Positions 5,183-19,763 of a DNA stretch of 64,000 nucleotides are shown here, piece by piece. The notes beneath the pieces are model-generated. The model worked only from the letters and a program-made list of their open reading frames with translations, did not search any database and was not told the origin of the DNA. The translations under genes and the position numbers were made by a program. Source of the stretch: Candidatus Caldarchaeum sp. GTDB lineage: Archaea; Thermoproteota; Nitrososphaeria_A; Caldarchaeales; Caldarchaeaceae. The stretch is from assembly GCA_038740895.1 (NCBI GenBank), contig JAVYLK010000001.1:105490-169489 (forward strand), in the 5' to 3' direction. Position 1 is the stretch's first letter; the number at the start of each line of letters is the position of its first letter.

Positions 5183-6118
5183 TTGACAGGTATGGGTAGG
5201 GCTAGGCTTTTACAGCTCGGTCGGGAGACGGACGTCGCTGTAATCAAGGCGTCGGTCAAGGGTTTCAGGTTCACAGACCTTGTCTTCGAAGTGGCTGGAG
5301 CCTTCCAGAAGCCCAACTATCCTGCCAGCGTTGCGGAGAAGCTTGGCGTCAGCAAGCAAATCGTCGGCCAATACGTCAAGAGGCTGGTTGAGCTTGGTGT
5401 GTTGACTGAGGCTGGAGAGGTGGATGTCAGGGGAGGTAGGGCGAGGATGTACGAGGCAACAGTCTCGGGTATGGCCATGCTTTTTCCAAGACCTCGGTGG
5501 CGTAAACATTCCAAGGGCGGTGAGATTCCCGAGAAGCTTTCGAGCTTCCTCAAACCCTTTCTCAGCGGTGGAACACTCAACGGCCTCGTTGTCGTCGGCT
5601 CTCCACACCCTCACGGGCCGTTTAGGTCTGTTGCGACGGACGGACACTACGGCTTTCAGCTCGGGCTGTTCCTCGGGCGATACGTGGACAACATCAGCGG
5701 GTTTAAAGTTCGTCTCGACGTCGACGTAAAGTCTGAGAAGCTCTACGAGAACAACTTGCTGTTGTTGGGAGGGCCTGGTACGAACATAATCACGGCGATG
5801 GTGAACTCAAGCCTGCCAGTCGGGTTCATCGAGGGCAACTACTGGTCCGGAATCATTTCGTCGAGGCAGACCTACACAAGCGAGTTTGTCGGGCTCGTCG
5901 CAAAGTCGCCCAACCCTAACAACCCTAGGAACACGGTGATAGTTTTGGCTGGGTTGAGGGCTTCGGGAACAAAGTCCGCCGTGCTGGCCTTGACCGAGAA
6001 CTGGAGCCGGCTGCTGGAAGCGTACCATGGTGAGCAGAGCTGGGCCGCCGTGGTGGAGGGTTTTGACGTGGACGGAGATGGTAAGGTAGACTCAGTCGAA
6101 ATACTCGAAACCACCTAA
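5183..6118 (+). CDS. Putative winged-helix transcriptional regulator with an uncharacterised C-terminal domain
   Basis: N-terminal HTH-like segment ASVAEKLGVSKQIVGQYVKRLVELGVLTE. The remaining ~220 aa have no recognisable motif. Confidence 0.4.
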   Translation: MTGMGRARLLQLGRETDVAVIKASVKGFRFTDLVFEVAGAFQKPNYPASVAEKLGVSKQIVGQYVKRLVELGVLTEAGEVDVRGGRARMYEATVSGMAMLFPRPRWRKHSKGGEIPEKLSSFLKPFLSGGTLNGLVVVGSPHPHGPFRSVATDGHYGFQLGLFLGRYVDNISGFKVRLDVDVKSEKLYENNLLLLGGPGTNIITAMVNSSLPVGFIEGNYWSGIISSRQTYTSEFVGLVAKSPNPNNPRNTVIVLAGLRASGTKSAVLALTENWSRLLEAYHGEQSWAAVVEGFDVDGDGKVDSVEILETT

Positions 6119-6682
6119 CTCCTTGAACGTCCTCTCGGCTTTCGCAAGGTCCTCCACGGTATCTACATCGGTCAGAAGTCTTTCATCAACCTCCACAACC
6201 CTAGCGCCGACGGTTTTGAGTATGCTCTTAGCTCCAACGTCGCCCTCAAGCATTATCAGCCTGTGGAGAAGCTTTTTAGAGAAAACCGCCGGGGGTGAGG
6301 GCTCGCCGGCCAAGCAGGCTGACACGGCTTCGCAGCACTCGTGTCTAAACACGTCAACAAGCTTCTTGACCACTTTCTTCGTGAACGGCATGTCCCCCAG
6401 AACTATCACCAAGCCCTCGGACTCCGAAGGAGTCCATGAGGCCGCCAGCCTGATGCCTGCGCTCAACCCTCTAGAGGCACGGGTGTTGACCAAGACGGCG
6501 TAGCTTGGAGGTATGAGGGCCTTCTTCACGTCGGAGAGCTGTACCACCACCGCCCTGTGCTCCAGAAAGGATATAGCTTCGACGGCCCAAGCAAGCAAAG
6601 GTCTCCCCATCAGCACGGCGGAGAGCTTGTCCCGGCCGAACCTCTGTGAATAACCCGAAGCGATCACGGCGCCGCTCAGCAT
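6092..6682 (-). CDS. MobA-like nucleotidyltransferase (molybdenum-cofactor guanylyl/cytidylyl-transferase family)
   Basis: N-terminal LSGAVIASGYSQRFGRDKL...GRPLL is the MobA/MocA NTP-transferase signature. About 195 aa. Start is taken at the Met preceding LSGAV. Confidence 0.6.
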   Translation of the reverse strand: MLSGAVIASGYSQRFGRDKLSAVLMGRPLLAWAVEAISFLEHRAVVVQLSDVKKALIPPSYAVLVNTRASRGLSAGIRLAASWTPSESEGLVIVLGDMPFTKKVVKKLVDVFRHECCEAVSACLAGEPSPPAVFSKKLLHRLIMLEGDVGAKSILKTVGARVVEVDERLLTDVDTVEDLAKAERTFKELGGFEYFD

Positions 6683-6754
6683 GGCTGTATCCACGCACCA
6701 TTGCGGCACGATAACCTTAAAAGTGTTTTAAGTACGTATCATTAATGGTACTGC

Positions 6755-7427: not shown

Positions 7428-7967
7428 ATGTTGGCTGAAGGAGAGCTTCTGAGGGACAGTGTCGTAGTCTGGAACCTTGAACACGCTAGGAAGGTTTTCA
7501 AGGAAGGGTTTTACGGCAAACCTCTGGGCATAGCGAAGCCTAAGGACATTAGCTTTGAAGCTCCTTTGGTCCTAGACCTTGTCGAGGCCCTATACCTGCA
7601 GCAAAAGAACAAGCTGTTGGTCTTTTCTGGAGGAAGAACCATCTCTCCGGACGAGCTTGAGAAGCATGCTTCATTGCTTGAGGAGAACTTTTCGATTAAG
7701 TACAGGGTTTACAGAGATTTGAGGGATAGGGGGTTCGTAGTTCTTCCGGGAATCAAGTTCGGCAGCGACTTTGCGGCTTACAGGCACGGGCCAGGCATAG
7801 ACCACGCGCCATTCATCATACAGGTCAAGAACAGGACGGGAAGCATTTCAGCTCTAGAGATAATCAGGGCCGGGAGGCTTGCTACTTCTGTCAAGAAACA
7901 CTTCACCATCGCAGTCCCGTCGGAAGATAAGGTCTCCTACGTGCTGTTCGAGTGGTGGAAGGCCTAG
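7428..7967 (+). CDS. endA: tRNA-splicing endonuclease, catalytic subunit
   Basis: 179 aa. C-terminal catalytic domain carries YRVYRDLRDRGFVVLPGIKFGSDFAAYRHGPGIDHAPFIIQVK (conserved Tyr/His/Lys triad region). Crenarchaeal catalytic-subunit size. Confidence 0.85.
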   Translation: MLAEGELLRDSVVVWNLEHARKVFKEGFYGKPLGIAKPKDISFEAPLVLDLVEALYLQQKNKLLVFSGGRTISPDELEKHASLLEENFSIKYRVYRDLRDRGFVVLPGIKFGSDFAAYRHGPGIDHAPFIIQVKNRTGSISALEIIRAGRLATSVKKHFTIAVPSEDKVSYVLFEWWKA

Positions 7968-7968
7968 A

Positions 7969-8631
7969 TTACTTCATCTTCCTGTACAGGGCGTGAAGAG
8001 TCCTTCCCGTTCTCTTCAGCCCTAGGAGCACGTGCCCTGTTTTATCCGCCCAGCTTATCATGTCAACCTCGGTCGCAGGGTCTGCTGTTATGACGTGGAG
8101 TGTATCACCCGTCTTGACGTTCAGTTCCATGAAATCTCCCATCTGAGTGAGGATCCCCTCACAAGTCTCTCCGAAAACCTTCAGCTCGTGGTGGGGCACT
8201 ACATCGAAGCAAACAACTCCACGGTCGGCGTTAACCCTAGAGTAGTAGTCGAGGGCTTCTCGGAAGCCTGCCAAGGACGGTTGCTCGAAGCATTCCAGCT
8301 CGGCCAGCCAGCCTCTTTCGTAGGGGTCTTCAGCCACCACCTCAGGGTTCGCCACAACATCGTTAGTCCTCAGCACACGGCAGTCAACCGGCGCCGTCAA
8401 AGCACCCTCCATCCTCAACGAAATGTAGAGAGCGAGAGAGGTGTTCTTCCTCAACAGGCTGCCGACCGGCTTAACGCTAATCCTTCTAGGTCTTCCGGCG
8501 AAGTGAAGGAATGGAGTGACAACTCCTACTACGTAAGTCGATGGACGGGTTAGAGGCTTGAACCATAAATCGTTGGGGAGGCTGTAAAGCCTGTCCTCCG
8601 GAAGCAAGCAGCCTTCGAGGCTATTTTTCAA
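7969..8631 (-). CDS. Fusion protein: GcvH-like (lipoyl-domain fold, no lipoyl-lysine) N-terminal domain plus TusA-like C-terminal domain
   Basis: Residues ~10-125 align with GcvH (YVVGVVTPFLHFAGRPRRISV...; ...EDPYERGWLAELE matches the DPYGEGW motif). The lipoylation position reads SLRM, so Lys is replaced by Arg. C-terminal ~95 aa match TusA (CEGIL in place of CPGPL; TGDTLHVITADPATEVDMISWADKTGHVLLGLKRTGRTLHALYRK). Overlaps the upstream rhodanese gene by 11 nt, so the two are co-transcribed. Confidence 0.55.
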   Translation of the reverse strand: MKNSLEGCLLPEDRLYSLPNDLWFKPLTRPSTYVVGVVTPFLHFAGRPRRISVKPVGSLLRKNTSLALYISLRMEGALTAPVDCRVLRTNDVVANPEVVAEDPYERGWLAELECFEQPSLAGFREALDYYSRVNADRGVVCFDVVPHHELKVFGETCEGILTQMGDFMELNVKTGDTLHVITADPATEVDMISWADKTGHVLLGLKRTGRTLHALYRKMK

Positions 8632-9466
8632 TCGGGTACCTGACGAGGTTGCCCCATTCAGTCCAGCTGCCGTCGTAAACCTTCACGCTCGGGTATCCCA
8701 GCAGATGTTTCAGAACGAACCAAGAGACGCTAGCCCTCTCTCCGATTCGGCAATACGTCACCACTTCTTTGTCGGGCAGTACCCCCTTCGAGCCGTACAG
8801 CTGTCTCAGCTCCTCAACGGGTTTGAAGGTTCCGTCCTCCCTTATCGCCTGCCCCCAAGGTATGTTGATCGCTCCGGGTATGTGTCCTCCACGCTGGGCA
8901 TGCTCGTTAGGGTATTCGGGCGGAGCAGTGATCTCTCCCTTGAACTCGGCGGGAGACCTTACGTCGACGAGAACGAGGCCGGGGTCGGCTATCTTCCGTT
9001 TCAGAAGCTCCTCTAGGAAGATTCTGTCGGAATAGCTTACCTTCTCAACCTTGTAGGTTGACGGCTTGGGTCTCGGCGTCTCCTTCGAGAGTTCTCCGCC
9101 GGAGTCGATCCATTTCTTACGTCCTCCGTTGAGGAGCTGCACCTTGCTGTGGCCGTACATTTCGAACACCCAAAATGCGAAGGTTGCGAACCAGTTGTTG
9201 TAATCCCCGTACAGGACGACGTGCGTCTCGTTCGAGATGCCAAGCTTAGACATTAGGGCTTCGAACTCTTTAGCGTCTATTATGTCCCTCGAATCGTGCT
9301 TGTTCATGTCTATCCTCCAGTCTATCAGCAGAGCTCCCGGTATGTGTCCCTGTTCGTATGCGAGCTTGGGGTCGTAGTCCACCTCCACAACGGCTAATCC
9401 GGGTTTGTCGAGGTTCTGCTTAAGCCATTCGACGTTTGTGAGGACTTGCGGGTGTGCGTATGACAT
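8621..9466 (-). CDS. Thiosulfate / 3-mercaptopyruvate sulfurtransferase (tandem rhodanese domains)
   Basis: 281 aa. The second domain has the active-site loop CRIGERASVSWFVL. The first domain is the inactive structural repeat (EQGHIPGALLIDW). Confidence 0.8.
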   Translation of the reverse strand: MSYAHPQVLTNVEWLKQNLDKPGLAVVEVDYDPKLAYEQGHIPGALLIDWRIDMNKHDSRDIIDAKEFEALMSKLGISNETHVVLYGDYNNWFATFAFWVFEMYGHSKVQLLNGGRKKWIDSGGELSKETPRPKPSTYKVEKVSYSDRIFLEELLKRKIADPGLVLVDVRSPAEFKGEITAPPEYPNEHAQRGGHIPGAINIPWGQAIREDGTFKPVEELRQLYGSKGVLPDKEVVTYCRIGERASVSWFVLKHLLGYPSVKVYDGSWTEWGNLVRYPIEK

Positions 9467-9528
9467 GGTTTGTGTCGGGGTTGGCTTTATTTAACCTATT
9501 CTTATCATAAAATAATATTGGTAATATA

Positions 9529-11208
9529 CTAGCCATATCTAAACCTAACGCCCCGACCGTTCCATTCATGTCCGAACCTCACGGCGGCCGGCGGGCCGAT
9601 CACTCCGCACGTCCCGCACGCCACGCACGCAACATGGTCGAACTTCAGCACGCTCGACTGTATGTCCTTCAGCGTCATGTCGTAGACTTTCCCGTCAGAG
9701 TCCGAGCCCGCCTGCTTCAAGTTGAAGCGGTACATGTCTCTGAAGGACGCAAACACTCCCTTTTCATTAACCACGGTGTAGCAGTTAACCGGGCACAGCG
9801 GAACCCATGCCTTCCGGCTGTCGGCCGAGGCTATTTTAGAGTCCACCTGTATGTGGGCCCTCTCCCTGTCCTCGTGATAGTCAAGCAGGCCTGTCATCGC
9901 TTGAATGTTTTTAATGGCGTCCCCGTCCTGCTGGGCCGGGTTGTAGTTGGATGCCTTGACTTTTCTCCCCAGACCGAGCCTGAACATGGCGGACACGCTC
10001 GACGAGTAGAGGAACTTCCTCTCGAGAAGCATGCTGTTCGTCTTGGACTTTCGGATAAGGCTGTACAGAGGCTGCAACATATGCTTGTAAATCGAAAGGG
10101 TTTCGTCGCCGAAGCTCCCAGCTTTATCAGCATGCATGTAGGCTTGAGCTGCCAGAATGCCAGAGGCTATAGCCGGCCTCATGCCGTCTATCAGGGCGCC
10201 GATTTTGTAGAAGACGCCTAGGGAGTCTCCAGCCGCCAGGAATCCGGGGTAGTAGGGCTTCTCAGGAGCAACTTTATAGCCACGAGGTATGTTGTGAGCC
10301 GAGTACTCAGCTATCCTACAATTCTCAACTATCTGAGAGACGAAGGGATGGGCCTCCATCTCCCTCAAGATTTCGTAGGGCTTTCCGAGCTCGTTGAACC
10401 GGGTTGTGAAGACCGATATGGCTGAGGATAGGTCCATCACGACACCGACCGACAGGCTGTCGCTGTTCGGGTAGATGAAGCCACCGCCTACTATGCCGTG
10501 CATGAATGGCCCTAGCAGGTATACTGTCTTAAAGCCGTCTTCGAGCCTGAAGAACTCTTCGATTCTCTGAGAGTTGGTTTTGAAGACATGCTTCAAGCCG
10601 TGGTAAACTTGGTCCGGCTTAATCTGTCCTCGCATCCCCACCCTCTCAGGAAGCAGCGAGGTGACTCCGCTGCAGTCTATCACGAGGTTTGCGCGAAGTT
10701 CCTCGTCCTGTGTTCTCACACCCACGACCCTGCCGTCCTCAAACAGCAAGTCCTCGACGGTTTTCGAGGTTGCGAGTAAAGCACCTTCCTCCACGGCCCT
10801 CAGGGCCATCCACCGGTCGAACTTGGCTCTCAAGACTGTGTAGTCGTGCCCGCTCGAAGCGTTCAGCATCGTCAAACCCAGCCTGGTCGCCAACGACTTC
10901 TTGTCCCACTTGATCAAGCTGAAGCTAACCCCGTCGTTCTCCGACTTAGGCTGGCTGATTAGGTAAAGCTCATGCCCCGTGATCCTTCTCTCGACTGGAG
11001 CCTCCTGCTCGAATTCAGGAAGCAGGTCGATTAAGCCAAGCCCCTTTATGAATCCCCCGAACAAAACCCCGCCCGAAACATTCCTCTGGCCAGGAAGCTG
11101 GGCCTTCTCCAGCATGATGACGTCGTAGCCCTCCCTTGCAAGCGTTATTGCCGCCGCCGACCCCGCCGGCCCCGCGCCGACCACCACCACGTCAAACCTG
11201 TCAGCCAT
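9529..11208 (-). CDS. fixCX: Electron-transfer-flavoprotein:quinone oxidoreductase FixC fused to a ferredoxin-like FixX domain
   Basis: N-terminal FAD dinucleotide fold (DVVVVGAGPAGSAAAITLAREGYDVIMLEK). C-terminal 4Fe-4S ferredoxin-like Cys cluster (CVACGTCG...). 8-nt overlap with upstream ETF alpha. Confidence 0.8.
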   Translation of the reverse strand: MADRFDVVVVGAGPAGSAAAITLAREGYDVIMLEKAQLPGQRNVSGGVLFGGFIKGLGLIDLLPEFEQEAPVERRITGHELYLISQPKSENDGVSFSLIKWDKKSLATRLGLTMLNASSGHDYTVLRAKFDRWMALRAVEEGALLATSKTVEDLLFEDGRVVGVRTQDEELRANLVIDCSGVTSLLPERVGMRGQIKPDQVYHGLKHVFKTNSQRIEEFFRLEDGFKTVYLLGPFMHGIVGGGFIYPNSDSLSVGVVMDLSSAISVFTTRFNELGKPYEILREMEAHPFVSQIVENCRIAEYSAHNIPRGYKVAPEKPYYPGFLAAGDSLGVFYKIGALIDGMRPAIASGILAAQAYMHADKAGSFGDETLSIYKHMLQPLYSLIRKSKTNSMLLERKFLYSSSVSAMFRLGLGRKVKASNYNPAQQDGDAIKNIQAMTGLLDYHEDRERAHIQVDSKIASADSRKAWVPLCPVNCYTVVNEKGVFASFRDMYRFNLKQAGSDSDGKVYDMTLKDIQSSVLKFDHVACVACGTCGVIGPPAAVRFGHEWNGRGVRFRYG

Positions 11209-12295
11209 TAGCCACCCTCTCCACAGCTTCTATGATTCTAGGAAGAGCTTCGTAAAGATCTCCTCTGACTCCGTAGTGCGCTATGTCGAAGATCGGTGCC
11301 TTAGGGTCGTTGTTTATGGCAACGATCTTCTTAGACCTGATCATCCCCACCCTATGCTGGACGGAACCGCTTATCCCAACGGCTATGTACACCTCTGGAG
11401 AAACCGTCTTCCCAGTCTGGCCTACTTGTCTTTCAGACGTCACCAATCCCTGGAGCTCTTTAAGCTCAGAGTAGATTAGGGCTCGTGTAGCGCCCAGCTC
11501 GCAGTTAACCCCTAGCTTTGTGCTCACCAAGTCGACCAGGCTTTTTGCAAGACTGTATCCCTCCCGTGGGTTTCTCGGCTTACCTTTTCCGTCCTTCAGT
11601 ATTCCCAGACCTATGCTGACCACAACCCTGGCCCCCTCCAAGTCGACTTCACTCTTCGGAAGCCTCCTCTCCTCGACCACTTCCACGACGAAGTCTTCAG
11701 GTACAGGCTTAGGATGGTACCTCACCACCTCTCCTTTCCTGCTTCTGTCTTCCTGAAGAGGTTCGAAGTTTCCGGGCCTGATGCTGGCTATTTGGGGCCT
11801 GTGTCTCGGTGTGAAGATCTTAGCCACACGCGTTGCGAAGTCTGGCCTTATCTGTGCCAGCACGCTCTTGTAAGTTGTGTTGGTGGGGCCGAAGTAGTAG
11901 TCCTCTACCTCGAGGTTGATGTTGTCCGTGGCAAGCCCGGTGCCAAGCCTGTAGGCAACTCTCGGCGAAAGGTCTCTCCCCAACTCGTCTGCGACGAACA
12001 GAAGAGCGTAAGGCTTCTCCTTCTCAACCATCTCGCAGAGAACTCTAGTGTAGGGCAAGCAGGTGTAGTTTTTGAGCCAAGGCTCGTCCGCGTACACAAC
12101 CTTGTCTGCTCCTCTGGCAATCGCCTCATCTACCCCTGATTTCAAGTCGTATCCTATGATTGCAGCCACAACTTTGTGTCCAAGCTTGTCAGCCACCTTC
12201 CGTGCTGCGGCGATTATCTCCAGGCTCGGCCTAGTAAGACGGCCGTCCTCCATGACGCAGTAAGCCCAGACGTCCCTATACTGCTCTAGCGACAA
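11201..12295 (-). CDS. etfA: Electron transfer flavoprotein alpha subunit (FixB)
   Basis: 364 aa. C-terminal FAD-binding ETF-alpha domain (SPEVYIAVGISGSVQHRVGMIRSKKIVAINNDPKAPIF). Overlaps neighbouring genes at both ends, consistent with an operon. Confidence 0.85.
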   Translation of the reverse strand: MSLEQYRDVWAYCVMEDGRLTRPSLEIIAAARKVADKLGHKVVAAIIGYDLKSGVDEAIARGADKVVYADEPWLKNYTCLPYTRVLCEMVEKEKPYALLFVADELGRDLSPRVAYRLGTGLATDNINLEVEDYYFGPTNTTYKSVLAQIRPDFATRVAKIFTPRHRPQIASIRPGNFEPLQEDRSRKGEVVRYHPKPVPEDFVVEVVEERRLPKSEVDLEGARVVVSIGLGILKDGKGKPRNPREGYSLAKSLVDLVSTKLGVNCELGATRALIYSELKELQGLVTSERQVGQTGKTVSPEVYIAVGISGSVQHRVGMIRSKKIVAINNDPKAPIFDIAHYGVRGDLYEALPRIIEAVERVANG

Positions 12296-13508
12296 TTCTC
12301 AACCCTCCGAATATCTCCTCAACCAAGTCGTCGAGGCTGAAAATTCCAACAACCCCTTCATGCTTGAACTTGTTCAACAAATCTTCGGGAAGGCTGCTGG
12401 CAAGGTCTCCCTTGCTGAACGGCCCGTAGGTTTTGCCGTTGTGCTGAAACTTCTCCACGTCTCTCTTAAAGACCAAGGTCTCGTCTACAAACTTCTGAGT
12501 AGGAGGCTTGCCCACCTCGTATCCGGGACCGACTATGGTTGGTGATCCCATCAACCCGAGCTTGCTCGGGTCGGCTTTGATGTATTCGGCGTTCCAGACT
12601 CTTACCTCTGCAACTCTGCCGGCGTAGTTTTTCAGCCTAGCATTCTTCTGGAGGTTTGCGGCTGGGACTCGAGGCTCGTAGTGGCTGTCGATAGTGAGGA
12701 GGCAGGGAAAGGTTGTTCGGAGTTTTTGTAGAACGCTGCCAACCTTCCTCACAGCTATGACGTTCCCAGAGTCGGGTGAAACCTCGAAATCACGTACGAA
12801 TGCGATGCTGGGGATTGGTGTGCCGAGCATGCTGCTCAAAGCCTCGGCGGTCTGGGGCCCTGTGTTCCCGGTCTCGCCGTCGCTCGTCTTCATGCCTGTC
12901 AAGATGATGAACTTGTTGACTTCCCTACGATACTTTTCAAGCTCCAAGATAAATCCTTCAACGCTCAATCTTCCTTGTGAGAACCTGTTCACTAGGGTGT
13001 CCTTGACAGTAGGGAGCTTGGAGAAGATGTAGTTTGGAAGCAGGTTTTCCCTGTAAAGCTTCTCAGCTGTTTCTCTGACCAAGTCTACGTCATTCTTCTT
13101 AACGACTTCGACCAGCTTGTCAACAGCCTCCAAATGGTTTTCTACAATTTTCTTGATGCCGCATGCAAGAGTGTATGATGTAGCCCAAGTGTCTGCCCCC
13201 GCCATCCTACGGTCGCTCAGGATTACTCTCTCGTCAAAGCCTGTGAACGATATTCGGGGAACGTAGAAGCTCTCCTCCACAGGCTGAGCCAAGTCTTTCA
13301 TGACGGGCATGATCTTAGGCTCAGGCCCCATGCACACACCAATCGTCTTACCGCCGACTGTCTGCTTTACGTAGTGTGCTGCCTCGATGGCCTTTCCGTC
13401 GTGAGGGTTTAGAACGAGGTCCATCTCCTCCCTCCGGAGGACGCCTGAGACCGTTACGACGCTGGTCGTCTTCGCCGGCACTCCTTTGACAAGGCACACG
13501 ATCAACAT
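12276..13508 (-). CDS. etfB: Electron transfer flavoprotein beta subunit (FixA) with internal insertion and C-terminal extension
   Basis: N-terminal MLIVCLVKGVPAKTT... matches the ETF-beta AMP-binding fold. The GSPTIV motif is present, but the protein is 410 aa against the usual ~260. The extra length is a ~70-aa helical insertion plus a ~70-aa C-terminal tail. Confidence 0.75.
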   Translation of the reverse strand: MLIVCLVKGVPAKTTSVVTVSGVLRREEMDLVLNPHDGKAIEAAHYVKQTVGGKTIGVCMGPEPKIMPVMKDLAQPVEESFYVPRISFTGFDERVILSDRRMAGADTWATSYTLACGIKKIVENHLEAVDKLVEVVKKNDVDLVRETAEKLYRENLLPNYIFSKLPTVKDTLVNRFSQGRLSVEGFILELEKYRREVNKFIILTGMKTSDGETGNTGPQTAEALSSMLGTPIPSIAFVRDFEVSPDSGNVIAVRKVGSVLQKLRTTFPCLLTIDSHYEPRVPAANLQKNARLKNYAGRVAEVRVWNAEYIKADPSKLGLMGSPTIVGPGYEVGKPPTQKFVDETLVFKRDVEKFQHNGKTYGPFSKGDLASSLPEDLLNKFKHEGVVGIFSLDDLVEEIFGGLRIVARAV

Positions 13509-15007: not shown

Positions 15008-15782
15008 TCTAGGTTTGGCTGTTAAACCTTCAAACCTCCGAGGAGACAAGTTTCAAGCCCTAGAGGCGTTGTCGAAGCTTCTGAAAAAGCACGGTTATTC
15101 AGCGCTGGTCATAGACTCTGAAACCGCTGACCAAGACATCAAGCTTAGCGACTACGCAAGGCTTGTCCATCGGTGTGTCGAGTACTCTTTATGCACTCCT
15201 GTGCTGACGATTCCCGTGAGGAGGCATGATTTTCACTGCCGGCTGGAGGAGTTTATGAGCGTCCTGGATTCAACAGACGGCTGTGGTGTCTGCCTAGTGG
15301 CAGGGAACCGCGCTTACTTGGATGAAGACGAGAGACGAATCGCCGCAGGTCCTTTAGTGCTAAAGGCTTGTGAGATGGTTAGGAGAATACGGCGATGCTT
15401 GCTGATGGTCGGCACGGAGCGGATGGAAAAAACAGCCTCAAAAGCTGCCTGCATGTACGGCGCATCCCCTTTCATACTGCTAAACCCCGCACTCTCCGAA
15501 GAACTGGGAAGATACGACACGGCCGTGGGTGTCTACGCCCCGTTCTACATCGGCAACGAAATCGCCGAAGAGGCTCTGGACAGGATGAAGGCTTACGTCA
15601 CCAGACGAGCAGCGAGTACGAGCTTGGAAGAAGCGGTAAACCACTTTTGCCTCATGGGCGGACTTGACGAGGTATCGCAAAGAGTATCCCTGGCTTGTAA
15701 TGGGGTTAACCTTCTGGTGGGGTATCCTCTGGCCCTGGAGGAGCGGCAGATAGCCTTGTTCGCTATGCTTTCACGGGCTTGA
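14994..15782 (+). CDS. Hypothetical protein (start uncertain; in-frame GTG at 14994 chosen to avoid overlap with the divergent upstream gene)
   Basis: ORF track frame 14805..15782. The first 110 codons overlap the opposite-strand gene start, so a later GTG/TTG start is assumed. Cys-rich central part (CTPV, CGVC). No recognised domain. Adjacent to the gcv operon. Confidence 0.3.
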   Translation: MDVFHLGLAVKPSNLRGDKFQALEALSKLLKKHGYSALVIDSETADQDIKLSDYARLVHRCVEYSLCTPVLTIPVRRHDFHCRLEEFMSVLDSTDGCGVCLVAGNRAYLDEDERRIAAGPLVLKACEMVRRIRRCLLMVGTERMEKTASKAACMYGASPFILLNPALSEELGRYDTAVGVYAPFYIGNEIAEEALDRMKAYVTRRAASTSLEEAVNHFCLMGGLDEVSQRVSLACNGVNLLVGYPLALEERQIALFAMLSRA

Positions 15783-16857
15783 AGAGAGGCTGCTTCCTGA
15801 CAACCACCTTTTTCGTAGCGTTTCTGGCGAGTATGTACAACACCGTCCCCTCTGTATGAAGCTCCGCTGGAATCTCGCCTAAAGCTAGGCCCTTGCCGAC
15901 CGAAGGAATGTACCCGCCGCTGGTGACGACGCCCACACGTTTTCCTGAGCTGTCTAGGATGGGGTATCCCGCTCTCGGCACACCGGGTTCCATCGCCTCA
16001 AGAATGGCGATCGTCGAGGAAGGCTTCGCCCTCAGCTTCTCCTCCAGCTTTTTCTTCCCGACGAAGTCTTTCTTCTCAAGGTTTACAGCCCACATCAACC
16101 CAGCCTCTACAGGCGTCTTAGCCTCGTCGAAATCCTGATGTGCAAGTAGATAACCAGCTTCGAGCCTGCAAGCATCCCTGCATGCTAGCCCGCAAGGCTT
16201 CACGCCACCATCCACGAACATTCTCCAAAGACTGGAGTACAACACAGTTCCGCCGCAGGGGATCATAAGCTCGTAGCCGTCGCCTCCGGTGTAGCCGCTT
16301 CTCGTCAAAAGAACCTGACAGCCCCCGAACTCAAAAACTCCTCCTGCGAACCACTTTAGACCGCTGAAATCCCTGCCGAAGACTCTGGAGACGTGGTCGG
16401 ACGCTCTCGGGCCTTGCACTGCGAAGAAGGCGGATCTTTCAGTAAAGTCTTCGACATAAACGTCGGGGCCGGCGTGCTGCGCCACCCAGTCCAGCACCCT
16501 CTCCCGCGAGACGGCGTTAGAGACCATAACGTAGCTGTCTTCCTGGAGCTTGAAAACAGTCATGTCGTCGATTATGCCTGCATCCTCGTTGAGCATCAGC
16601 CCGTACTTCATCCTTCCCGGCTTGAGACGCTCCACATCTATCGTCAGGATTTTCTGCAGAAGAGTTGTTGAAGAAGAGCCCGCTATCTTTGTCCTAGTCA
16701 TGTGGCTTATGTCGAAAATCCCCGACGACTCTCTGACCGCTTTGTGCTCTTCTCTCAAGCTCGTGAAGGCGATTATCGTTCTCCAGCCCGCGAACTCCCC
16801 AACCTCGGCGGATGGGTAGTTTGATTGATAATACCTCAAAAGCGGTATCTCTTTCAC
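15763..16857 (-). CDS. gcvT: Glycine cleavage system T protein (aminomethyltransferase)
   Basis: 364 aa. Folate-binding aminomethyltransferase fold (SGIFDISHMTRTKIAG; GYTGGDGYEL). Overlaps gcvPB. Confidence 0.85.
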   Translation of the reverse strand: MKEIPLLRYYQSNYPSAEVGEFAGWRTIIAFTSLREEHKAVRESSGIFDISHMTRTKIAGSSSTTLLQKILTIDVERLKPGRMKYGLMLNEDAGIIDDMTVFKLQEDSYVMVSNAVSRERVLDWVAQHAGPDVYVEDFTERSAFFAVQGPRASDHVSRVFGRDFSGLKWFAGGVFEFGGCQVLLTRSGYTGGDGYELMIPCGGTVLYSSLWRMFVDGGVKPCGLACRDACRLEAGYLLAHQDFDEAKTPVEAGLMWAVNLEKKDFVGKKKLEEKLRAKPSSTIAILEAMEPGVPRAGYPILDSSGKRVGVVTSGGYIPSVGKGLALGEIPAELHTEGTVLYILARNATKKVVVRKQPLFKPVKA

Positions 16858-18368
16858 TTCAACCTACTCCGAAGAACCCTCCACGTAGGCGTTATAGTCA
16901 AGGGATGCGAGGCTTTGGCCTCGTCTATTCTACCTACCGGCGTGCTGTGAGGTGCTTTACGGACAAGCGTCGGATTTCTGTAGCACTCGTCAACCACCGA
17001 CTCGAAAGCTTGGATGAAGGCGTCCAGCTCTGCCTTAGACTCTGTCTCCGTCGGCTCTACCATAAAAGCCTCCTCCACTATCAGGGGGAAGTAGACGGTG
17101 GGAGCGTGAAAACCATAATCGATGAGGCGCTTAGCAGCCTCAAGGGCGCCCAAACCCGTATCCCTCCGAAGCTTCGCCAAGCTGACCACAAACTCGTGCT
17201 TGCGTGGTCTGGAAGAGTCGTAAGGGAGGCTCACCCCACGAACTCCCGCCAACCTAGAGAGCATGTAGTTTGAAGCCACGACGGCGTAGTTGGCCGCTCT
17301 CCTCAACCCCTCACCCCCCATCGCCAGAATGTATGCATAAGCCCTCACCAGGACGCCGAAGTTTCCGTGAAACATCTTGACAGGACCTATGCTGGCTTGA
17401 CCACCGTCCAGAAGCTCGTAGACGCCGTTGTGCTTCACGATTCTAGGCGGCGGAAGATATTTTGAAAGCTTGGAAACCACCCCAACAGGCCCAGCCCCCG
17501 GGCCTCCTCCGCCGTGTGGCGTTGAAAATGTTTTGTGGAGGTTGAGATGAACGATGTCGAACCCCATGTCGCCCGGCCTGACAACTCCCATTATGGCGTT
17601 CAGGTTGGCTCCGTCGTAGTACAGGAGTGAGTCGTTTGAATGAATAGTCTCGACTATTTTCTCGATTTCTTTCTCGAAGAGGCCCACGGTGTTGGGGTTT
17701 GTGAGCATGATGCCTGCCACGTCGCCGTCGACGATCTTCTCAAGCATCTCGAGGTCGACGCAGCCGTCCTGCCTCGTCTTCACAACCACCACTTCAAAAC
17801 CAGCCATTCCTGCGCTAGCTGGGTTGGTCCCGTGTGCAGAGTCGGGGATGATTATCTTCTGACGGGGCTTGCCTTCTTTCTCAGCGTGGTATGCTCTCAT
17901 GATGAGGCAGCCGACGAGCTCGCCGTGCGCCCCAGCTGCTGGTGCGAGGCAGAAGGCATCCATGCCTGTTATCTCCTTGAGGGCTGTTTCTAGGTTGTAC
18001 AGAAGCTCGAGGCATCCTTGGACTGTTTTCGGAGGCTGGAGGGGGTGTATGTTGGCTGATTCCTCCAGCCAGGCCAAGTGGTTGTTGACGACTGGGTTGT
18101 ACTTCATGGTGCAGCTGCCCAGGGGGTAGAAGGTTGTTGAAATGCTCATGTTCATCTGGCTCAGCCGCGTGTAGTGCCTCAACACTGAGGGCTCTGAAAG
18201 CTCAGGCAGAGGAAGGTCGCTCCGCAACAGATCCTCAGGAACGTCGTTTAGCCTCCTCCTTCCAACCTCCTCAATCTCCGTGTCTGTAGACGGTGGTGAA
18301 TACCCTCTAGCCCCCGGCTTCGAAAGCTCATAAACCAGCTTCTCATCCCAGCAAGCCTGCCTGAACAC
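16854..18368 (-). CDS. gcvPB: Glycine dehydrogenase (decarboxylating) subunit 2
   Basis: 504 aa. PLP-lysine region HLNLHKTFSTPHGGGGPGAGPVGV is characteristic of P-protein subunit 2. Confidence 0.9.
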   Translation of the reverse strand: MFRQACWDEKLVYELSKPGARGYSPPSTDTEIEEVGRRRLNDVPEDLLRSDLPLPELSEPSVLRHYTRLSQMNMSISTTFYPLGSCTMKYNPVVNNHLAWLEESANIHPLQPPKTVQGCLELLYNLETALKEITGMDAFCLAPAAGAHGELVGCLIMRAYHAEKEGKPRQKIIIPDSAHGTNPASAGMAGFEVVVVKTRQDGCVDLEMLEKIVDGDVAGIMLTNPNTVGLFEKEIEKIVETIHSNDSLLYYDGANLNAIMGVVRPGDMGFDIVHLNLHKTFSTPHGGGGPGAGPVGVVSKLSKYLPPPRIVKHNGVYELLDGGQASIGPVKMFHGNFGVLVRAYAYILAMGGEGLRRAANYAVVASNYMLSRLAGVRGVSLPYDSSRPRKHEFVVSLAKLRRDTGLGALEAAKRLIDYGFHAPTVYFPLIVEEAFMVEPTETESKAELDAFIQAFESVVDECYRNPTLVRKAPHSTPVGRIDEAKASHPLTITPTWRVLRSRLK

Positions 18369-19763
18369 TTAACCAACCCTCCTGAGAAACTCAACGTAGC
18401 TGTCTATGTCCCGCCTGCTGTGTACCTCAGTGACCGCCGTAAGTATTGCGTCACCGAGCTTGGGGTAGCCCGGCCCGAGCCTCAGCCCGCCGACGATTCC
18501 ATGCTCGAGGAGGTGCTCAAGAACTCTCGAGCATTCAACGCCCTCGACACGATAGGCGAACTCCATGTAGTGAGGTGCTTCGGTGAAAGGTATTCTTATG
18601 CCTTGAACCTTATTCAGCTTCTCCATGAAGTAGCTTGTTTTGTCGAAGATGTGTCTGGCCAAGTCTCTCAGCCCGTTCTTTCCCAGAAGGGAGAGGTAGG
18701 CGGCTGCTGCCACCGCGCAAAGCGCCTGGTTCGTGCAGATGTTGGAAGTTGCTTTCTCCCTTTTAATGTCCTGCTCTCTAGCTCTCAGGATCATGGTGAA
18801 TGCTCGTTTTCCGTCTGTCAAAGTTTCAGTCATGCCCACAAGCCTTCCGGGCATGGTGTGGACGAGCCTCCGCTCGTACCGGCATCCGAGGATCCCGAGT
18901 AGAGGTCCTCCAAAGCTCATCGGAAGACCCAGCGGCTGTCCCTCCCCCACAACCACGTCGGCCCCATACTCGCCGGGAGGGGTGAAGAGGCCGAGGGAGG
19001 TCGGCTCTGCACCCACGACGAAAAGGGCTCCAGAGTCGTGCGCTATCTCTCCAACAGCCCTCACATTCCTGACAACGGCTCCAACGTAGCTCGGGTTCTC
19101 AACATAGACCACAGATGTTTCGTTGTCTATTGTGTTCTTTAGGCTTTCCTCGTCTACGAACGCCTTGTAGTCCATGGGTATGGTCTCTATTTTCATGCCG
19201 AGGGGTTGTGTGTAGGTTTTTGCCACTCTCAAGCGTTCCGGGCTGCTTAGCTCCGCGACCAAAACCTTTCTACGGCCGTTGTACCGGTTCGCCATCCGTA
19301 AAGCCTCTCCCAGGGCCGTCGCCCAGTCATACATCGATGAGTTTACTACGTCCACGCCGTAGAGGTCTGCTGCAAGGCTTTGGAACTCGAACAAGGCCGT
19401 AAGCATCCCCTGCGAGGCCTCCGGCTGGTATGGTGTGTAGCTGGTCAGGAACTCAGACCTCGAAACTATCTCCTTGACGGCGGCTGGAACGTAGTGGGGC
19501 CAAACACCTCCTCCTATGAACAGCTTCAACCCTGTCTTGTTCTTGCCAAGTATGCTTCTAATGCTTTCGACAACCTCCTGCTCCGACAAGCCAGGCCCTA
19601 AAGCCGGAGGGCTGGGCAGGATATACTTGGACGGTATGTCTGAGTACAGGTCCATGGGGCTTGAAACACCTATAGCCTCGAGCATCTTCCGCAAGTCTTC
19701 GTCCGTGTGATGGCTGAGGTAAGGAGCTTTCTCAACCATGTTCGTGTACAAGACCAATATCAA
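18369..19763 (-). CDS. gcvPA: Glycine dehydrogenase (decarboxylating) subunit 1
   Basis: 464 aa. N-terminal SHHTDEDLRKMLEAIG, TSYTPYQPEASQG. Directly abuts gcvPB. Confidence 0.9.
   Translation of the reverse strand: MILVLYTNMVEKAPYLSHHTDEDLRKMLEAIGVSSPMDLYSDIPSKYILPSPPALGPGLSEQEVVESIRSILGKNKTGLKLFIGGGVWPHYVPAAVKEIVSRSEFLTSYTPYQPEASQGMLTALFEFQSLAADLYGVDVVNSSMYDWATALGEALRMANRYNGRRKVLVAELSSPERLRVAKTYTQPLGMKIETIPMDYKAFVDEESLKNTIDNETSVVYVENPSYVGAVVRNVRAVGEIAHDSGALFVVGAEPTSLGLFTPPGEYGADVVVGEGQPLGLPMSFGGPLLGILGCRYERRLVHTMPGRLVGMTETLTDGKRAFTMILRAREQDIKREKATSNICTNQALCAVAAAAYLSLLGKNGLRDLARHIFDKTSYFMEKLNKVQGIRIPFTEAPHYMEFAYRVEGVECSRVLEHLLEHGIVGGLRLGPGYPKLGDAILTAVTEVHSRRDIDSYVEFLRRVG

What the first reader, a model, noticed from the sequence alone, without database searches (positions are those of the whole stretch)
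7969..9466. Rhodanese co-transcribed with a GcvH-like::TusA-like fusion that lacks the lipoyl-lysine
The 220-aa protein has a complete GcvH-like fold in its N-terminal half, including the DPYxEGW-type motif (EDPYERGWLAELE). The position that carries lipoyl-lysine in glycine-cleavage H proteins reads ...ISLRMEGALTAPV..., so Lys is replaced by Arg and it cannot be lipoylated in the usual way. The C-terminal half is TusA-like, with the conserved sulfur-carrier cysteine in a CEGI context instead of CPxP. The gene overlaps a tandem-domain rhodanese (active-site CRIGERAS) by 11 nt. This reads as a dedicated sulfur-relay module (rhodanese to a TusA-like Cys carrier) in which a lipoyl-domain scaffold has been repurposed. 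The parts resemble the LbpA/TusA/DsrE components of Hdr-like sulfur oxidation loci, but that fusion and the loss of the lysine are unusual.
Basis: partly seen in the sequence, partly recalled or inferred. Interest (0 to 1): 0.6.

Follow-up and report, generated by a model that had tools for sequence, protein, structure and literature searches.

The report
Archaeal rhodanese plus LbpA-TusA fusion
This is a real, conserved two-gene unit of archaea: an ordinary sulfur-transferring enzyme (rhodanese) sits next to an undescribed carrier protein that joins a lipoate-carrier-like domain, which no longer needs its lipoate-bearing lysine, to a TusA-type sulfur-carrier domain.

Summary
A 281-aa tandem rhodanese (8621-9466, minus strand, active site YCRIGERAS) overlaps by 11 nt a 220-aa protein (7969-8631). 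The N-half of that protein has the GcvH fold, with Arg73 at the tip of the lipoyl-lysine hairpin. Its C-half is a TusA fold with the carrier cysteine (Cys157) in a CEGI context.

Three things are new.
1. The fusion is not a one-off. It is an archaeal family found in at least 165 reference genomes (Nitrososphaeria including ammonia oxidisers, Caldarchaeales, Bathyarchaeia, Thermoplasmata).
2. An orthologous rhodanese lies next to it in 81 of 92 loci and in 11 of 12 sequence groups. No other neighbour is conserved.
3. The N-domain is closest to LbpA, the lipoate-binding protein of sHdr sulfur oxidation. It keeps LbpA's two signature cysteines (Cys8, Cys141). The lipoyl-lysine position, however, flips freely between Arg (62%) and Lys (33%). 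No sHdr, DsrE or lipoate-synthesis genes lie nearby.

The most likely function is a housekeeping sulfane-sulfur relay, from rhodanese to Cys157, with Cys8/Cys141 as a possible second station. It would work without lipoate, and the final acceptor is unknown. I found no paper describing this family. I rate it a new variant of a known kind, of moderate interest.

The parts
8621..9466 (-). Tandem-domain rhodanese (281 aa) of the thiosulfate-sulfurtransferase type
   Evidence: ORF. Pfam gives Rhodanese twice, E 1.5e-39. The closest solved structures are T. thermophilus rhodanese 1UAR (E 5e-98) and M. tuberculosis CysA/SseA. Orthologues next to the fusion gene in other archaea have a median identity of 55%.
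8750..8752 (-). Codon of the catalytic Cys239 in the active-site loop YCRIGERAS
   Evidence: Codon TGC. It is the only cysteine column conserved in 74 of 74 aligned orthologues, whose consensus is YCRIGERSS.
8621..8631 (-). 11-nt overlap between the rhodanese stop (TAG, 8621-8623) and the fusion gene's TTG start (8629-8631)
   Evidence: Read directly from the sequence. Caldarchaeales relatives show a 2-nt gap or a 4-nt overlap.
7969..8631 (-). 220-aa LbpA/GcvH-like::TusA-like fusion protein
   Evidence: ORF. Domains. AlphaFold2 model with pLDDT 96.4 and pTM 0.90. A 99%-identical protein is annotated as hypothetical in Candidatus Caldarchaeum sp..
8221..8622 (-). N-terminal LbpA/GcvH-like domain (residues 4-137)
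   Evidence: Pfam GCV_H E 1.2e-10. Foldseek TM 0.84-0.85 to GcvH structures. It scores higher against an sHdr-cluster LbpA than against E. coli GcvH: 44.8 against 28.9 bits for this protein, and the same direction for 121 of 121 family members.
8413..8415 (-). Arg73 codon (AGG) at the position of the lipoyl-lysine, at the tip of the beta-hairpin
   Evidence: Aligned to E. coli GcvH Lys64. Across the family this position is Arg 75, Lys 40, other 5, gap 1, of 121 members. The Lys/Arg state is already randomised at 60-70% identity.
8608..8610 (-). Cys8 codon: the N-terminal LbpA-signature cysteine (motif G-C-x-x-P-E-D-x-x-Y)
   Evidence: Conserved in 115 of 116 family members with data. The same cysteine occurs in stand-alone LbpAs. 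The signature is described in PMC6067878.
8209..8211 (-). Cys141 codon: the second LbpA-signature cysteine, here in the structured linker (V-x-C-F-x-x-x-P-D) before the TusA domain
   Evidence: Conserved in 119 of 120 members. The single family member lacking it also lacks Cys8. It aligns with the C-terminal cysteine of stand-alone LbpAs.
7972..8196 (-). C-terminal TusA-like domain (residues 146-220, beta-alpha-beta-alpha-beta-beta)
   Evidence: Secondary structure. Foldseek TM 0.87 and rmsd 1.3 A to E. coli TusA 3LVJ_C. The C-half profile matches E. coli TusA at E 1.4e-10.
8161..8163 (-). Cys157 codon: counterpart of the persulfide-carrying Cys19 of E. coli TusA, in a CEGI context instead of CPxP
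   Evidence: Aligned to TusA Cys19. Invariant in 120 of 120 members; the family consensus is E-C-[SA]-A-[VT].
9467..9528 (-). AT-rich intergenic spacer upstream of the rhodanese, with a TATA-like TTAAATAAA (9486-9494) about 24 nt before the ATG. This is a possible own promoter for a leaderless rhodanese/fusion transcript.
   Evidence: Read from the sequence. The promoter assignment is inference from the usual archaeal TATA-box spacing and was not tested.

Best explanation
The two genes encode a self-contained cytoplasmic sulfane-sulfur relay that is conserved in many archaea.

**Step 1 (inferred from family knowledge).** The tandem rhodanese takes a sulfane sulfur from thiosulfate or another persulfide donor onto Cys239 of its CRIGERAS loop.

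**Step 2 (inferred from conserved gene pairing, and from experimentally shown rhodanese-TusA exchange in other organisms).** The sulfur passes to Cys157 of the TusA-like domain of the fusion protein.

**Step 3 (hypothesis).** The N-terminal domain derives from the LbpA type of lipoate-binding protein. It packs rigidly on the TusA domain and keeps LbpA's two signature cysteines (Cys8, Cys141). These could serve as a second sulfur-binding or resolving station, or as a docking surface for the acceptor.

**Lipoate.** Lipoate is not involved. The lysine site is Arg in this protein and in most relatives.

**Cellular role.** The unit sits among housekeeping genes and occurs in organisms not known to oxidise sulfur (ammonia oxidisers; this last point is from my own knowledge). 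I therefore think it feeds or buffers sulfur for general cellular needs rather than for dissimilatory oxidation. The final acceptor is unknown.
For: **Shown here**
- Domain identities and the alignment of the key residues.
- The rhodanese is an ordinary TST-type enzyme with one invariant cysteine.
- The fusion is a family of 121 unique sequences here. About 35 clusters at 50% identity show the full two-domain architecture in the 1.8-billion-protein library, and at least 165 reference genomes encode a relative.
- The rhodanese orthologue is adjacent in 81 of 92 loci and in 11 of 12 sequence groups. No other gene family occurs in more than 4 groups.
- Cys8, Cys141 and Cys157 are essentially invariant, and Cys8 and Cys141 are lost together in the single exception.
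- The Lys/Arg state flips as if neutral. In stand-alone two-cysteine relatives of LbpA type, Lys is kept in 52 of 54, and the two exceptions appear to be truncated fusion proteins.
- The nearest stand-alone relatives are LbpAs inside sHdr clusters.
- No sHdr, DsrE or LipS homologue lies within 10 kb in any locus, nor anywhere in the 64-kb window.

**From the literature**
- LbpA is defined by two cysteines that GcvH lacks, plus a strictly conserved lysine (PMC6067878).
- Aquifex TusA co-purifies with LbpA, and the rhodanese Rhd442 exchanges sulfur with TusA (PMC11094781).
Against: - No sulfur transfer was tested, so donor, direction and acceptor are all inferred.
- In most lineages the two genes are convergent rather than in one operon. 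The link therefore rests on conserved adjacency, not on co-transcription.
- Some loci with long flanks lack an adjacent rhodanese, for example L041, L048, L076 and L090.
- Cys157 is not in the canonical CPxP motif, and this protein's TusA score is below Pfam's cut-off.
- The tools did not return model coordinates, so I could not check whether Cys8 and Cys141 lie near Cys157 or near the Arg73 hairpin.
- One third of family members keep a Lys that could in principle be lipoylated.
Confidence: 0.6

Rival explanations
1. The pair supplies sulfur specifically for 2-thiolation of the tRNA wobble uridine (U34). In that role it would parallel bacterial TusA and the eukaryotic tandem rhodanese Tum1.
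For: - In 21 Nitrososphaeria loci the gene directly upstream of the fusion, co-directional with a 12-41 nt gap in intact cases, is Elp3, the radical-SAM/GNAT enzyme that modifies position 5 of U34.
- In this window the fusion gene ends 1 nt from the convergent tRNA-splicing endonuclease gene.
- A wyosine-synthesis radical-SAM gene lies beside it in L060.
- From general knowledge: E. coli TusA starts the s2U34 relay, and yeast Tum1 is a tandem rhodanese that feeds Uba4/Urm1.
Against: - The Elp3 linkage is confined to two of the twelve sequence groups (both groups consist of Nitrososphaeria-type genomes), so it may be inherited synteny.
- No Ncs6/NcsA, Urm1/SAMP or E1-like gene was seen as a conserved neighbour.
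- Yeast TUM1 is only a distant match to this rhodanese: E 1.7e-13, against 5e-98 for Thermus rhodanese.
- Archaeal genomes often cluster informational genes, so the tRNA-related neighbours may be coincidental.
Confidence: 0.15
2. The fusion is a protein-dithiol acceptor that replaces dihydrolipoate. The rhodanese would load Cys157, and Cys141/Cys8 would then resolve the persulfide. That releases sulfide and leaves a disulfide to be re-reduced by thioredoxin. The net result is thiosulfate reduction or assimilation, or sulfane detoxification.
For: - A lipoyl-carrier scaffold has dropped its lipoyl-lysine but strictly keeps two extra cysteines, which are lost only together.
- The classical rhodanese reaction with dihydrolipoate yields sulfite and sulfide (references cited in PMC6067878).
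- The unit sits in housekeeping surroundings.
Against: - The same two cysteines are present in lipoylated LbpAs, so they did not arise as a substitute for lipoate.
- I have no geometric evidence that the cysteines can reach each other.
- No thioredoxin or reductase is a conserved neighbour.
Confidence: 0.12
3. It is a working H-protein or LbpA, acting as a lipoate-dependent carrier for glycine cleavage or for sHdr sulfur oxidation. Several databases annotate it this way ('glycine cleavage system H protein').
For: - It matches Pfam GCV_H above the cut-off.
- gcvT, gcvPB and gcvPA lie 7 kb away on the same strand, and the window holds no separate gcvH.
- JGI names relatives as H-protein.
- One third of the family has Lys at the site.
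Against: - Arg73 cannot be lipoylated, and Arg/Lys interchange freely in the family.
- The NCBIfam GcvH equivalog score is 28 against a cut-off of 115.85.
- The gcv linkage exists only in Caldarchaeales.
- No sHdr, DsrE or LipS genes lie near any of the 92 loci.
Confidence: 0.03
4. The three conserved cysteines bind a metal or an Fe-S cluster, or form a redox switch. The protein would then act with respiratory electron-transfer modules (ETF/FixCX here, complex I elsewhere) rather than as a sulfur carrier.
For: - Three near-invariant cysteines.
- In Caldarchaeales the pair follows etfB-etfA-fixCX on the same strand.
- In one Thermoproteota clade the pair sits between nuoI and nuoJ, with the fusion gene overlapping nuoI by 4 nt.
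Against: - Both respiratory contexts are lineage-specific.
- An AT-rich, TATA-like spacer separates fixCX from the rhodanese.
- No fourth conserved ligand is evident in the alignment.
- The universally conserved partner is a sulfurtransferase.
Confidence: 0.07

Closest known systems
[quoted passage not shown] 2018, PMC6067878)
   Same: It shares the GcvH-type fold and the two signature cysteines, one near the N-terminus and one at the C-terminal end of the domain. It is the best-scoring stand-alone relative. It also acts in the company of TusA and rhodaneses.
   Different: LbpA's strictly conserved lipoyl-lysine is Arg here and is variable (Arg or Lys) across the fusion family. The domain is fused to TusA. 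No shdr, dsrE, slpl or lipS genes lie nearby. The family occurs in ammonia-oxidising archaea, which are not known to use sHdr (general knowledge).
TusA (E. coli YhhP and TusA of sulfur oxidisers; Pfam PF01206)
   Same: It has the same two-layer alpha/beta sandwich (TM 0.87) and the cysteine at the start of helix 1, aligned to Cys19. It partners with a sulfurtransferase.
   Different: The CPxP motif is replaced by CEGI (family consensus C-[SA]-A-[VT]). The domain is not free-standing but packed rigidly against an LbpA-like domain (pTM 0.90). The conserved partner is a TST-type rhodanese rather than IscS or DsrE.
Rhodanese-TusA(-DsrE2) sulfur-relay modules of sulfur oxidisers (Allochromatium rhd-tusA-dsrE2; Hyphomicrobium Rhd442-TusA-DsrE3C, PMC11094781)
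   Same: A rhodanese and a TusA-type carrier are encoded side by side. Sulfur exchange between such proteins has been shown experimentally in those systems.
   Different: There is no DsrE-family member and no downstream oxidising enzyme (rDsr or sHdr). The rhodanese is a tandem-domain CysA/SseA type rather than a single-domain enzyme. The carrier has the extra LbpA-like domain.
GcvH, the H-protein of the glycine cleavage system
   Same: It has the same fold (TM about 0.85, rmsd about 2 A) and conserved framework residues (W23, G36, P81, N90, the PY-x-x-GW motif).
   Different: It has no lipoyl-lysine. It scores far below the NCBIfam equivalog cut-off. It has extra cysteines and a TusA fusion, and its linkage to gcvT/gcvP is not conserved.
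GcvH-L of Streptococcus/Staphylococcus (PDB 5A35) and other H-protein paralogues with non-glycine roles
   Same: This is another example of an H-protein fold recruited outside glycine cleavage. It is a structural match (TM 0.75).
   Different: GcvH-L keeps the lipoyl-lysine and works with a macrodomain/sirtuin pair (general knowledge). Neither partner is present here.

Membership tests
GcvH (glycine cleavage H-protein) | Hybrid barrel-sandwich H-protein fold | tested here: met
   Foldseek match of the AlphaFold model to 1ONL, 3A8J and 1HTP: TM 0.84-0.85, rmsd 1.7-2.2 A. Pfam GCV_H scores 41.8 bits against a cut-off of 22.2.
GcvH (glycine cleavage H-protein) | Lipoyl-lysine at the hairpin tip (E-S-V-K motif) | tested here: not met
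   Arg73 aligns with E. coli Lys64. There is no Lys in the hairpin. The family has Arg 75, Lys 40, other 5, gap 1, of 121.
GcvH (glycine cleavage H-protein) | Score above the curated equivalog threshold | tested here: not met
   TIGR00527 scores 28 bits against 115.85. NF002270 scores 41.3 against 117.
GcvH (glycine cleavage H-protein) | Conserved association with gcvT/gcvP | tested here: not met
   gcvT/PB/PA lie at 15763-19763 in the window, and the same arrangement is seen in Caldarchaeales relatives. It is absent in the other lineages.
LbpA (sHdr-associated lipoate-binding protein) | Two conserved cysteines, near the N-terminus and near the C-terminus, that GcvH lacks (PMC6067878) | tested here: met
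   Cys8 and Cys141 align with the cysteines of LbpAs from sHdr clusters. They are conserved in 115 of 116 and 119 of 120 family members.
LbpA (sHdr-associated lipoate-binding protein) | Strictly conserved lipoyl-lysine | tested here: not met
   This protein has Arg73. Stand-alone two-cysteine relatives keep Lys in 52 of 54; the two exceptions look like truncated fusions. The fusion family does not keep it.
LbpA (sHdr-associated lipoate-binding protein) | Encoded in or next to an shdr cluster with dedicated lipoate ligase/synthase genes | tested here: not met
   No HdrB1/B2, HdrC1, DsrE or LipS homologue was found in the 64-kb window or within 10 kb in 91 other loci. The rest of each genome could not be searched.
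TusA / SirA (PF01206) | Two-layer alpha/beta sandwich with beta-alpha-beta-alpha-beta-beta order | tested here: met
   Secondary-structure elements E148-152, H157-171, E177-182, H187-198, E201-208, E211-217. TM 0.87 and rmsd 1.3 A to 3LVJ_C.
TusA / SirA (PF01206) | Conserved cysteine at the N-terminus of helix 1 (E. coli Cys19) | tested here: met
   In the profile alignment, 'GveCsav' matches 'GLRCPEP' at E 1.4e-10. Cys157 is invariant in 120 of 120 members.
TusA / SirA (PF01206) | CPxP motif around the cysteine | tested here: not met
   This protein has CEGI. In the family the residue after the cysteine is Ser/Ala/Glu, and Pro in only 5 of 121.
TusA / SirA (PF01206) | Score above Pfam's gathering cut-off | tested here: inconclusive
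   This protein scores 25.0 bits against 28.6. However, 36 of 37 family members match TusA at E <= 0.01, with a best E-value of 6.7e-14.
TusA / SirA (PF01206) | Carries a persulfide (or thiosulfonate) on the cysteine | not testable with these tools
   This needs mass spectrometry of the protein after incubation with a loaded rhodanese.
Tandem rhodanese, thiosulfate-sulfurtransferase type | Two rhodanese domains with the catalytic cysteine in a six-residue CRxGx[R/T]-type loop of the C-terminal domain | tested here: met
   Two Pfam stretches. The loop is C239-R-I-G-E-R-A, and the orthologue consensus is YCRIGERSS. Thermus rhodanese 1UAR matches at E 5e-98.
Tandem rhodanese, thiosulfate-sulfurtransferase type | Thiosulfate:acceptor sulfurtransferase activity | not testable with these tools
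   This needs an enzyme assay.
rhd-tusA-dsrE2 type relay module | A DsrE-family sulfurtransferase encoded with the rhodanese and TusA | tested here: not met
   Searching all 92 loci with four DsrE proteins from the sHdr clusters of loci L092 and L093 gave no hit.

The most novel reading that the evidence does not exclude
The fusion defines an undescribed, lipoate-independent branch of the LbpA family. In it the two LbpA cysteines, together with the covalently attached TusA cysteine, would form a cysteine-only sulfur-handling site fed by a dedicated rhodanese.

If that is right, this two-gene unit is the general sulfane-sulfur hub of Nitrososphaeria (including ammonia oxidisers), Caldarchaeales, Bathyarchaeia and Thermoplasmata. 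It could supply, for example, tRNA U34 thiolation next to Elp3.

It would also be a natural 'Rosetta-stone' fusion showing that TusA and LbpA act on each other directly. That would give an experimental handle on what the unexplained LbpA cysteines do in sHdr sulfur oxidation.
Probability: 0.25. Interest if true: 0.75.

Novelty: new variant of a known kind. Interest (0 to 1): 0.55.

Why it matters
Rhodanese-TusA relays and LbpA proteins are known, but two points remain open. One is the role of LbpA's two conserved cysteines. The other is how TusA hands sulfur to LbpA.

This family joins the two proteins covalently, keeps the cysteines and dispenses with lipoate. It therefore separates the cysteine-based function of the scaffold from its lipoate-based function.

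The family is also widespread in ecologically important archaea, including soil ammonia oxidisers and Bathyarchaeia, whose cytoplasmic sulfur trafficking is largely uncharted. Databases currently mislabel it as 'glycine cleavage system H protein' or 'hypothetical protein'. Correcting that label matters for metabolic reconstructions that count gcvH.

Tried and rejected
**Searches that failed or were unavailable**
- The search for related loci on the whole-family alignments A2 and A3 failed because no stretch was conserved enough. A four-sequence alignment worked.
- The tools do not return model coordinates, so I could not measure distances among Cys8, Cys141, Cys157 and Arg73.
- The word-indexed protein search with the family profile recovered only 15 proteins. 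The exhaustive representative search was needed to see the family.
- Literature searches for a GcvH/LbpA-TusA fusion found nothing relevant. I searched on TusA+GcvH+fusion, PF01597+PF01206, TusA+Elp3, LbpA cysteines and LbpA+AlphaFold. The supplements of PMC11094781 are not held.

**Readings considered and rejected**
- A functional link to the upstream EtfB-EtfA-FixCX genes, which recalls the EtfAB of type II sHdr clusters. I rejected it because the synteny exists only in Caldarchaeales and an AT-rich promoter-like spacer intervenes.
- A link to the gcvT/gcvP genes 7 kb away. This linkage is specific to one lineage.
- A link to complex I, where the pair sits between nuoI and nuoJ. This occurs in one small clade only.
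- Replacement of the rhodanese by another sulfurtransferase in loci that lack it. The genes found there are unrelated: ADH, HemD, CofD, Tyw1.
- A second, canonical GcvH in the window. None was found at E <= 10.
Full report
**1.

The window is archaeal. The 220-aa protein is 99% identical to a hypothetical protein of Candidatus Caldarchaeum sp.. On the minus strand lie a 281-aa ORF (8621..9466, ATG start) and a 220-aa ORF (7969..8631, TTG start). They overlap by 11 nt: the rhodanese stop TAG is at 8621-8623 and the fusion's TTG start is at 8629-8631.

- **Domain matches.** Pfam finds two Rhodanese stretches in the first ORF (E 1.5e-39). In the second it finds GCV_H (E 1.2e-10, residues 30-120) and TusA (E 1.7e-5, 25.0 bits, just under the 28.6-bit cut-off).
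- **The lysine position.** Alignment to E. coli and T. thermophilus H-proteins puts Arg73 on the lipoyl-lysine...yislRmegaltapv... against ...aesvKaasdiyapv.... Its codon is AGG, one transition away from Lys. The nearest lysine (K62) is 11 residues upstream, outside the hairpin.
- **Structure.** An AlphaFold2 model built on only ten sequences was mediocre (pLDDT 76.5). With 37 family sequences it became very confident and rigid across both domains (pLDDT 96.4, pTM 0.90). Residues 72-74 form the turn between strands 65-71 and 75-79. The C-half has the beta-alpha-beta-alpha-beta-beta order of TusA.
- **Structural matches.** Foldseek gives TM 0.84-0.85 (rmsd about 2 A) to H-proteins for the N-half. 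It gives TM 0.87 (rmsd 1.3 A over 73 columns) to E. coli TusA in the IscS complex for the C-half. No solved structure matches the whole protein.
- **The TusA cysteine.** A profile of 22 C-halves finds E. coli TusA at E 1.4e-10, with the family cysteine on TusA Cys19.

**2. The fusion is a family, not an oddity**

The word-indexed search found only nine close relatives, named Caldarchaeum where a source gave a name. The exhaustive profile search of 1.84 billion representatives found about 35 clusters at 50% identity with the same full-length architecture, 215-250 aa.

Source names place them in Aigarchaeota, Bathyarchaeia, Thermoprotei, unclassified Thermoproteota and Methanomassiliicoccales. 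A scan of one genome per GTDB species with two conserved peptides gave 165 genomes with a relative. The 80 best are mostly Nitrososphaerales, including Nitrososphaera and Nitrososphaeraceae. The rest include Gagatemarchaeum, Bathyarchaeia and Thermoplasmata/Methanomassiliicoccales.

All 37 aligned members match Pfam GCV_H, and 36 match TusA. Databases call them 'hypothetical', 'glycine cleavage system H protein' or 'sulfurtransferase TusA family protein'. I found no paper on them.

**3. The rhodanese is the one conserved partner**

In six gene-context look-ups the fusion gene was always next to a 280-287 aa rhodanese.

I then called ORFs in all 92 loci: 80 reference genomes, 11 loci from the six contig look-ups (metagenome assemblies and one NCBI genome assembly), and the window.
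- 81 loci have an orthologue of the window's rhodanese beside the fusion (phmmer E about 1e-100 to 1e-115 for full-length copies).
- Several of the remaining loci simply end at a contig edge.
- After grouping the fusion proteins at 55% identity (12 groups), the rhodanese is adjacent in 11 groups. No other gene family is found in more than 4 groups.
- The recurrent others are housekeeping genes: TFIIB, chorismate synthase, a Bud32-like kinase, Ham1, DinB and an Obg-like GTPase.

Orientation differs between lineages. In Caldarchaeales, the P0041 lineage and loci L044/L064 the rhodanese is upstream on the same strand, with an overlap or a short gap. In most others the two genes are convergent, with 1-100 nt between their stops. 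Co-transcription is therefore likely here but is not the general rule.

The rhodanese itself is ordinary and well conserved. Median identity is 55% across these archaea, with a single invariant cysteine in YCRIGERSS. It is close to Thermus rhodanese 1UAR (E 5e-98) and to mycobacterial CysA/SseA.

Upstream of it, the 62-nt spacer after fixCX is AT-rich. It carries TTAAATAAA about 24 nt before the ATG. This fits an archaeal TATA box driving a leaderless transcript. That is my inference and was not tested.

**4. The N-domain is LbpA-like, and the lysine site is no longer constrained**

In 121 unique family members three cysteines are essentially invariant: Cys8 (115/116), Cys141 (119/120) and Cys157 (120/120). 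The single exception lacks Cys8 and Cys141 together.

- **Nearest relatives.** After the full-length fusions, the best hits of the family profile are stand-alone 137-160 aa proteins. They have the same N-terminal G-C-x-x-P-E-D-L-x-Y cysteine and a cysteine at their C-terminal end, aligned with Cys141. They come from Aquificota, Hydrogenisulfobacillus and Chloroflexota.
- **These relatives are LbpAs.** Two that I looked up lie inside textbook sHdr clusters. In the Hydrogenivirga locus the order is tusA, dsrE genes, hdrC1B1A-hyp-hdrC2B2, lbpA and a radical-SAM gene. The Hydrogenisulfobacillus locus has the same hdr core with dsrE genes, a second GcvH-like gene and a lipoate ligase.
- **The signature.** Cao et al. 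describe exactly this: two strictly conserved cysteines, near the N- and C-termini, that GcvH lacks, together with a strictly conserved lysine (PMC6067878).
- **Relative scores.** The Hydrogenivirga LbpA scores higher than E. coli GcvH against all 121 fusion members (median 77.6 against 43.2 bits). An HMM of the fusion N-domain gives 115-148 bits to LbpA-type proteins and 93.5 bits to E. coli GcvH.
- **The lysine.** Among stand-alone two-cysteine proteins Lys is present in 52 of 54, and the two exceptions look like truncated fusions. In the fusion family the site is Arg in 75, Lys in 40 and another residue in 5. Pairs of sequences differ in Lys/Arg state 46% of the time already at 60-70% identity, which is the value expected for random assortment.

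The selection at this site is thus for a basic residue, not for a lipoylation site. The rest of the hairpin stays conserved in most of the family (E70 in 110/121, F75 in 84, R79 in 90), though less so in the Caldarchaeales subgroup. The hairpin therefore probably still matters, perhaps as a docking or anion-binding surface. That is speculation.

**5. What is not there**

Pfam annotation covered nearly all large ORFs of the window up to about 59.7 kb. It shows no hdr-like, dsrE, tRNA-thiolation or lipoate-synthesis genes. Searching all ORFs of the 92 loci with sHdr-cluster proteins gave the following:
- no HdrB1, HdrB2, HdrC1, DsrE or LipS hit;
- only generic flavoprotein and SdhB matches for HdrA and HdrC2;
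- weak lipoate-ligase matches in one clade.

No second GcvH-like ORF is in the window.

**6. Most likely mechanism**

Rhodanese-to-TusA sulfur exchange has been shown experimentally in other systems, and Aquifex TusA co-purifies with LbpA (PMC11094781). With the gene-pair conservation, this makes the following the best-supported reading.
- The rhodanese forms a persulfide on Cys239 (inferred from the family).
- It hands the sulfur to Cys157 of the TusA-like domain (inferred from adjacency and precedent).
- The LbpA-derived domain is fixed against the TusA domain. It contributes Cys8/Cys141 as a further sulfur-binding or resolving site, or as the surface that meets the acceptor (hypothesis).

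Lipoate is not needed. The housekeeping surroundings, the absence of sHdr and DsrE nearby, and the presence in ammonia oxidisers (general knowledge: not sulfur oxidisers) all argue for a biosynthetic or homeostatic role rather than a dissimilatory one.

The acceptor is open. The only lead is Elp3 directly upstream in 21 Nitrososphaeria loci. This points to wobble-uridine modification, but it is limited to two of the twelve sequence groups (both groups consist of Nitrososphaeria-type genomes). The other local contexts are likewise lineage-specific: ETF/FixCX in Caldarchaeales, and nuoI/nuoJ in one Thermoproteota clade.

**7. Comparison, novelty and verdict**

- **What it works like.** It works like a rhodanese-TusA relay.
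- **What it is not.** It is not a member of GcvH in the functional sense, having no lysine and scoring far below the equivalog cut-off. It is not a canonical LbpA, having no conserved lysine and no sHdr context.
- **TusA half.** The TusA half meets the fold and cysteine criteria but not the CPxP motif.
- **What it is.** The combination is an LbpA-type scaffold with its cysteines but without the lipoyl requirement, fused to TusA and paired with a TST-type rhodanese across several archaeal classes. As far as I could search, it is undescribed.

I rate it a new variant of a known kind, with interest 0.55.
- The fusion and the Arg are normal for a large family.
- The LbpA affinity is specific rather than vague.
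- The sHdr/DsrE context is absent.

The main gaps are the lack of any transfer assay, the unknown acceptor, and my inability to measure cysteine geometry in the model.

Noticed in passing
window 9529-13508 (-): Directly upstream on the same strand is an ETF-type operon with unusual parts. It has a 410-aa EtfB-like protein with only a weak, split ETF match, a 364-aa EtfA, and a 559-aa FixC-like flavoprotein. The last has a C-terminal extension of about 180 aa beyond the FixC match that is rich in cysteine motifs (…CPVNCY…, …CVACGTCGV…). The order etfB-etfA-fixC-rhodanese-fusion is conserved in Caldarchaeales relatives only.
   Followed up: partly
window 15763-19763 (-) and 49081-50421 (+): gcvPA, gcvPB and gcvT form a cluster without a gcvH, and no canonical H-protein ORF is found anywhere in the 64-kb window. 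A serine hydroxymethyltransferase gene lies 30 kb away. The genuine lipoylated H-protein must be encoded elsewhere in the genome.
   Followed up: partly
L014-L068 (21 loci), e.g. L014:4788-6383 (+), L018:8367-9980 (+): In one large group of Nitrososphaeria genomes, Elp3 (radical SAM + GNAT, a tRNA U34 modification enzyme) sits immediately upstream of the fusion gene on the same strand, with a 12-41 nt gap in intact cases. This is a possible hint at a tRNA-thiolation acceptor, or it may be inherited synteny.
   Followed up: partly
L008:3961-11848, L012 and L013 around 10001: In one Thermoproteota clade the fusion gene and the convergent rhodanese are inserted in the middle of the complex I operon. 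The order is nuoA-B-C-D-H-I, then the fusion, then the rhodanese on the opposite strand, then nuoJ-K-N. The fusion overlaps nuoI by 4 nt, and a lipoate-protein ligase gene lies 5 kb downstream.
   Followed up: partly
P0049 (1391 aa) and P0079 (742 aa): Two long proteins in the representative library carry repeated matches to parts of the family profile. P0049 has three GcvH-like stretches, with Arg at the aligned lysine position (QSMR) of the scored stretch. P0079 has five TusA-like stretches. I did not examine their nature.
   Followed up: no
window 7428-7967 (+) versus 7969-8631 (-): The tRNA-splicing endonuclease gene (EndA) converges on the fusion gene, with only one base between the two stop codons. 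The same arrangement occurs in Caldarchaeales relatives (L001, L003).
   Followed up: partly
window 6092-6709 (-): A MobA-like nucleotidyltransferase gene (molybdenum-cofactor guanylyl/cytidylyl-transferase family) lies 1.3 kb downstream of the fusion, and it is there in Caldarchaeales relatives too. Molybdenum-cofactor synthesis is another sulfur-requiring pathway that TusA influences in E. coli (general knowledge), but the linkage is specific to this lineage.
   Followed up: no
window 31918-32976 (-), 43184-44314 (+): The window holds a weak CdvA-like coiled-coil protein and a Vps4-like AAA ATPase with an MIT domain. These are components of the archaeal ESCRT-type cell-division system and are unrelated to the finding.
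   Followed up: no
window 27750-30350 (-): An 866-aa ORF has only a short matrixin/reprolysin-type zinc-peptidase motif match near residues 106-189. The remaining roughly 680 residues have no Pfam match.
   Followed up: no
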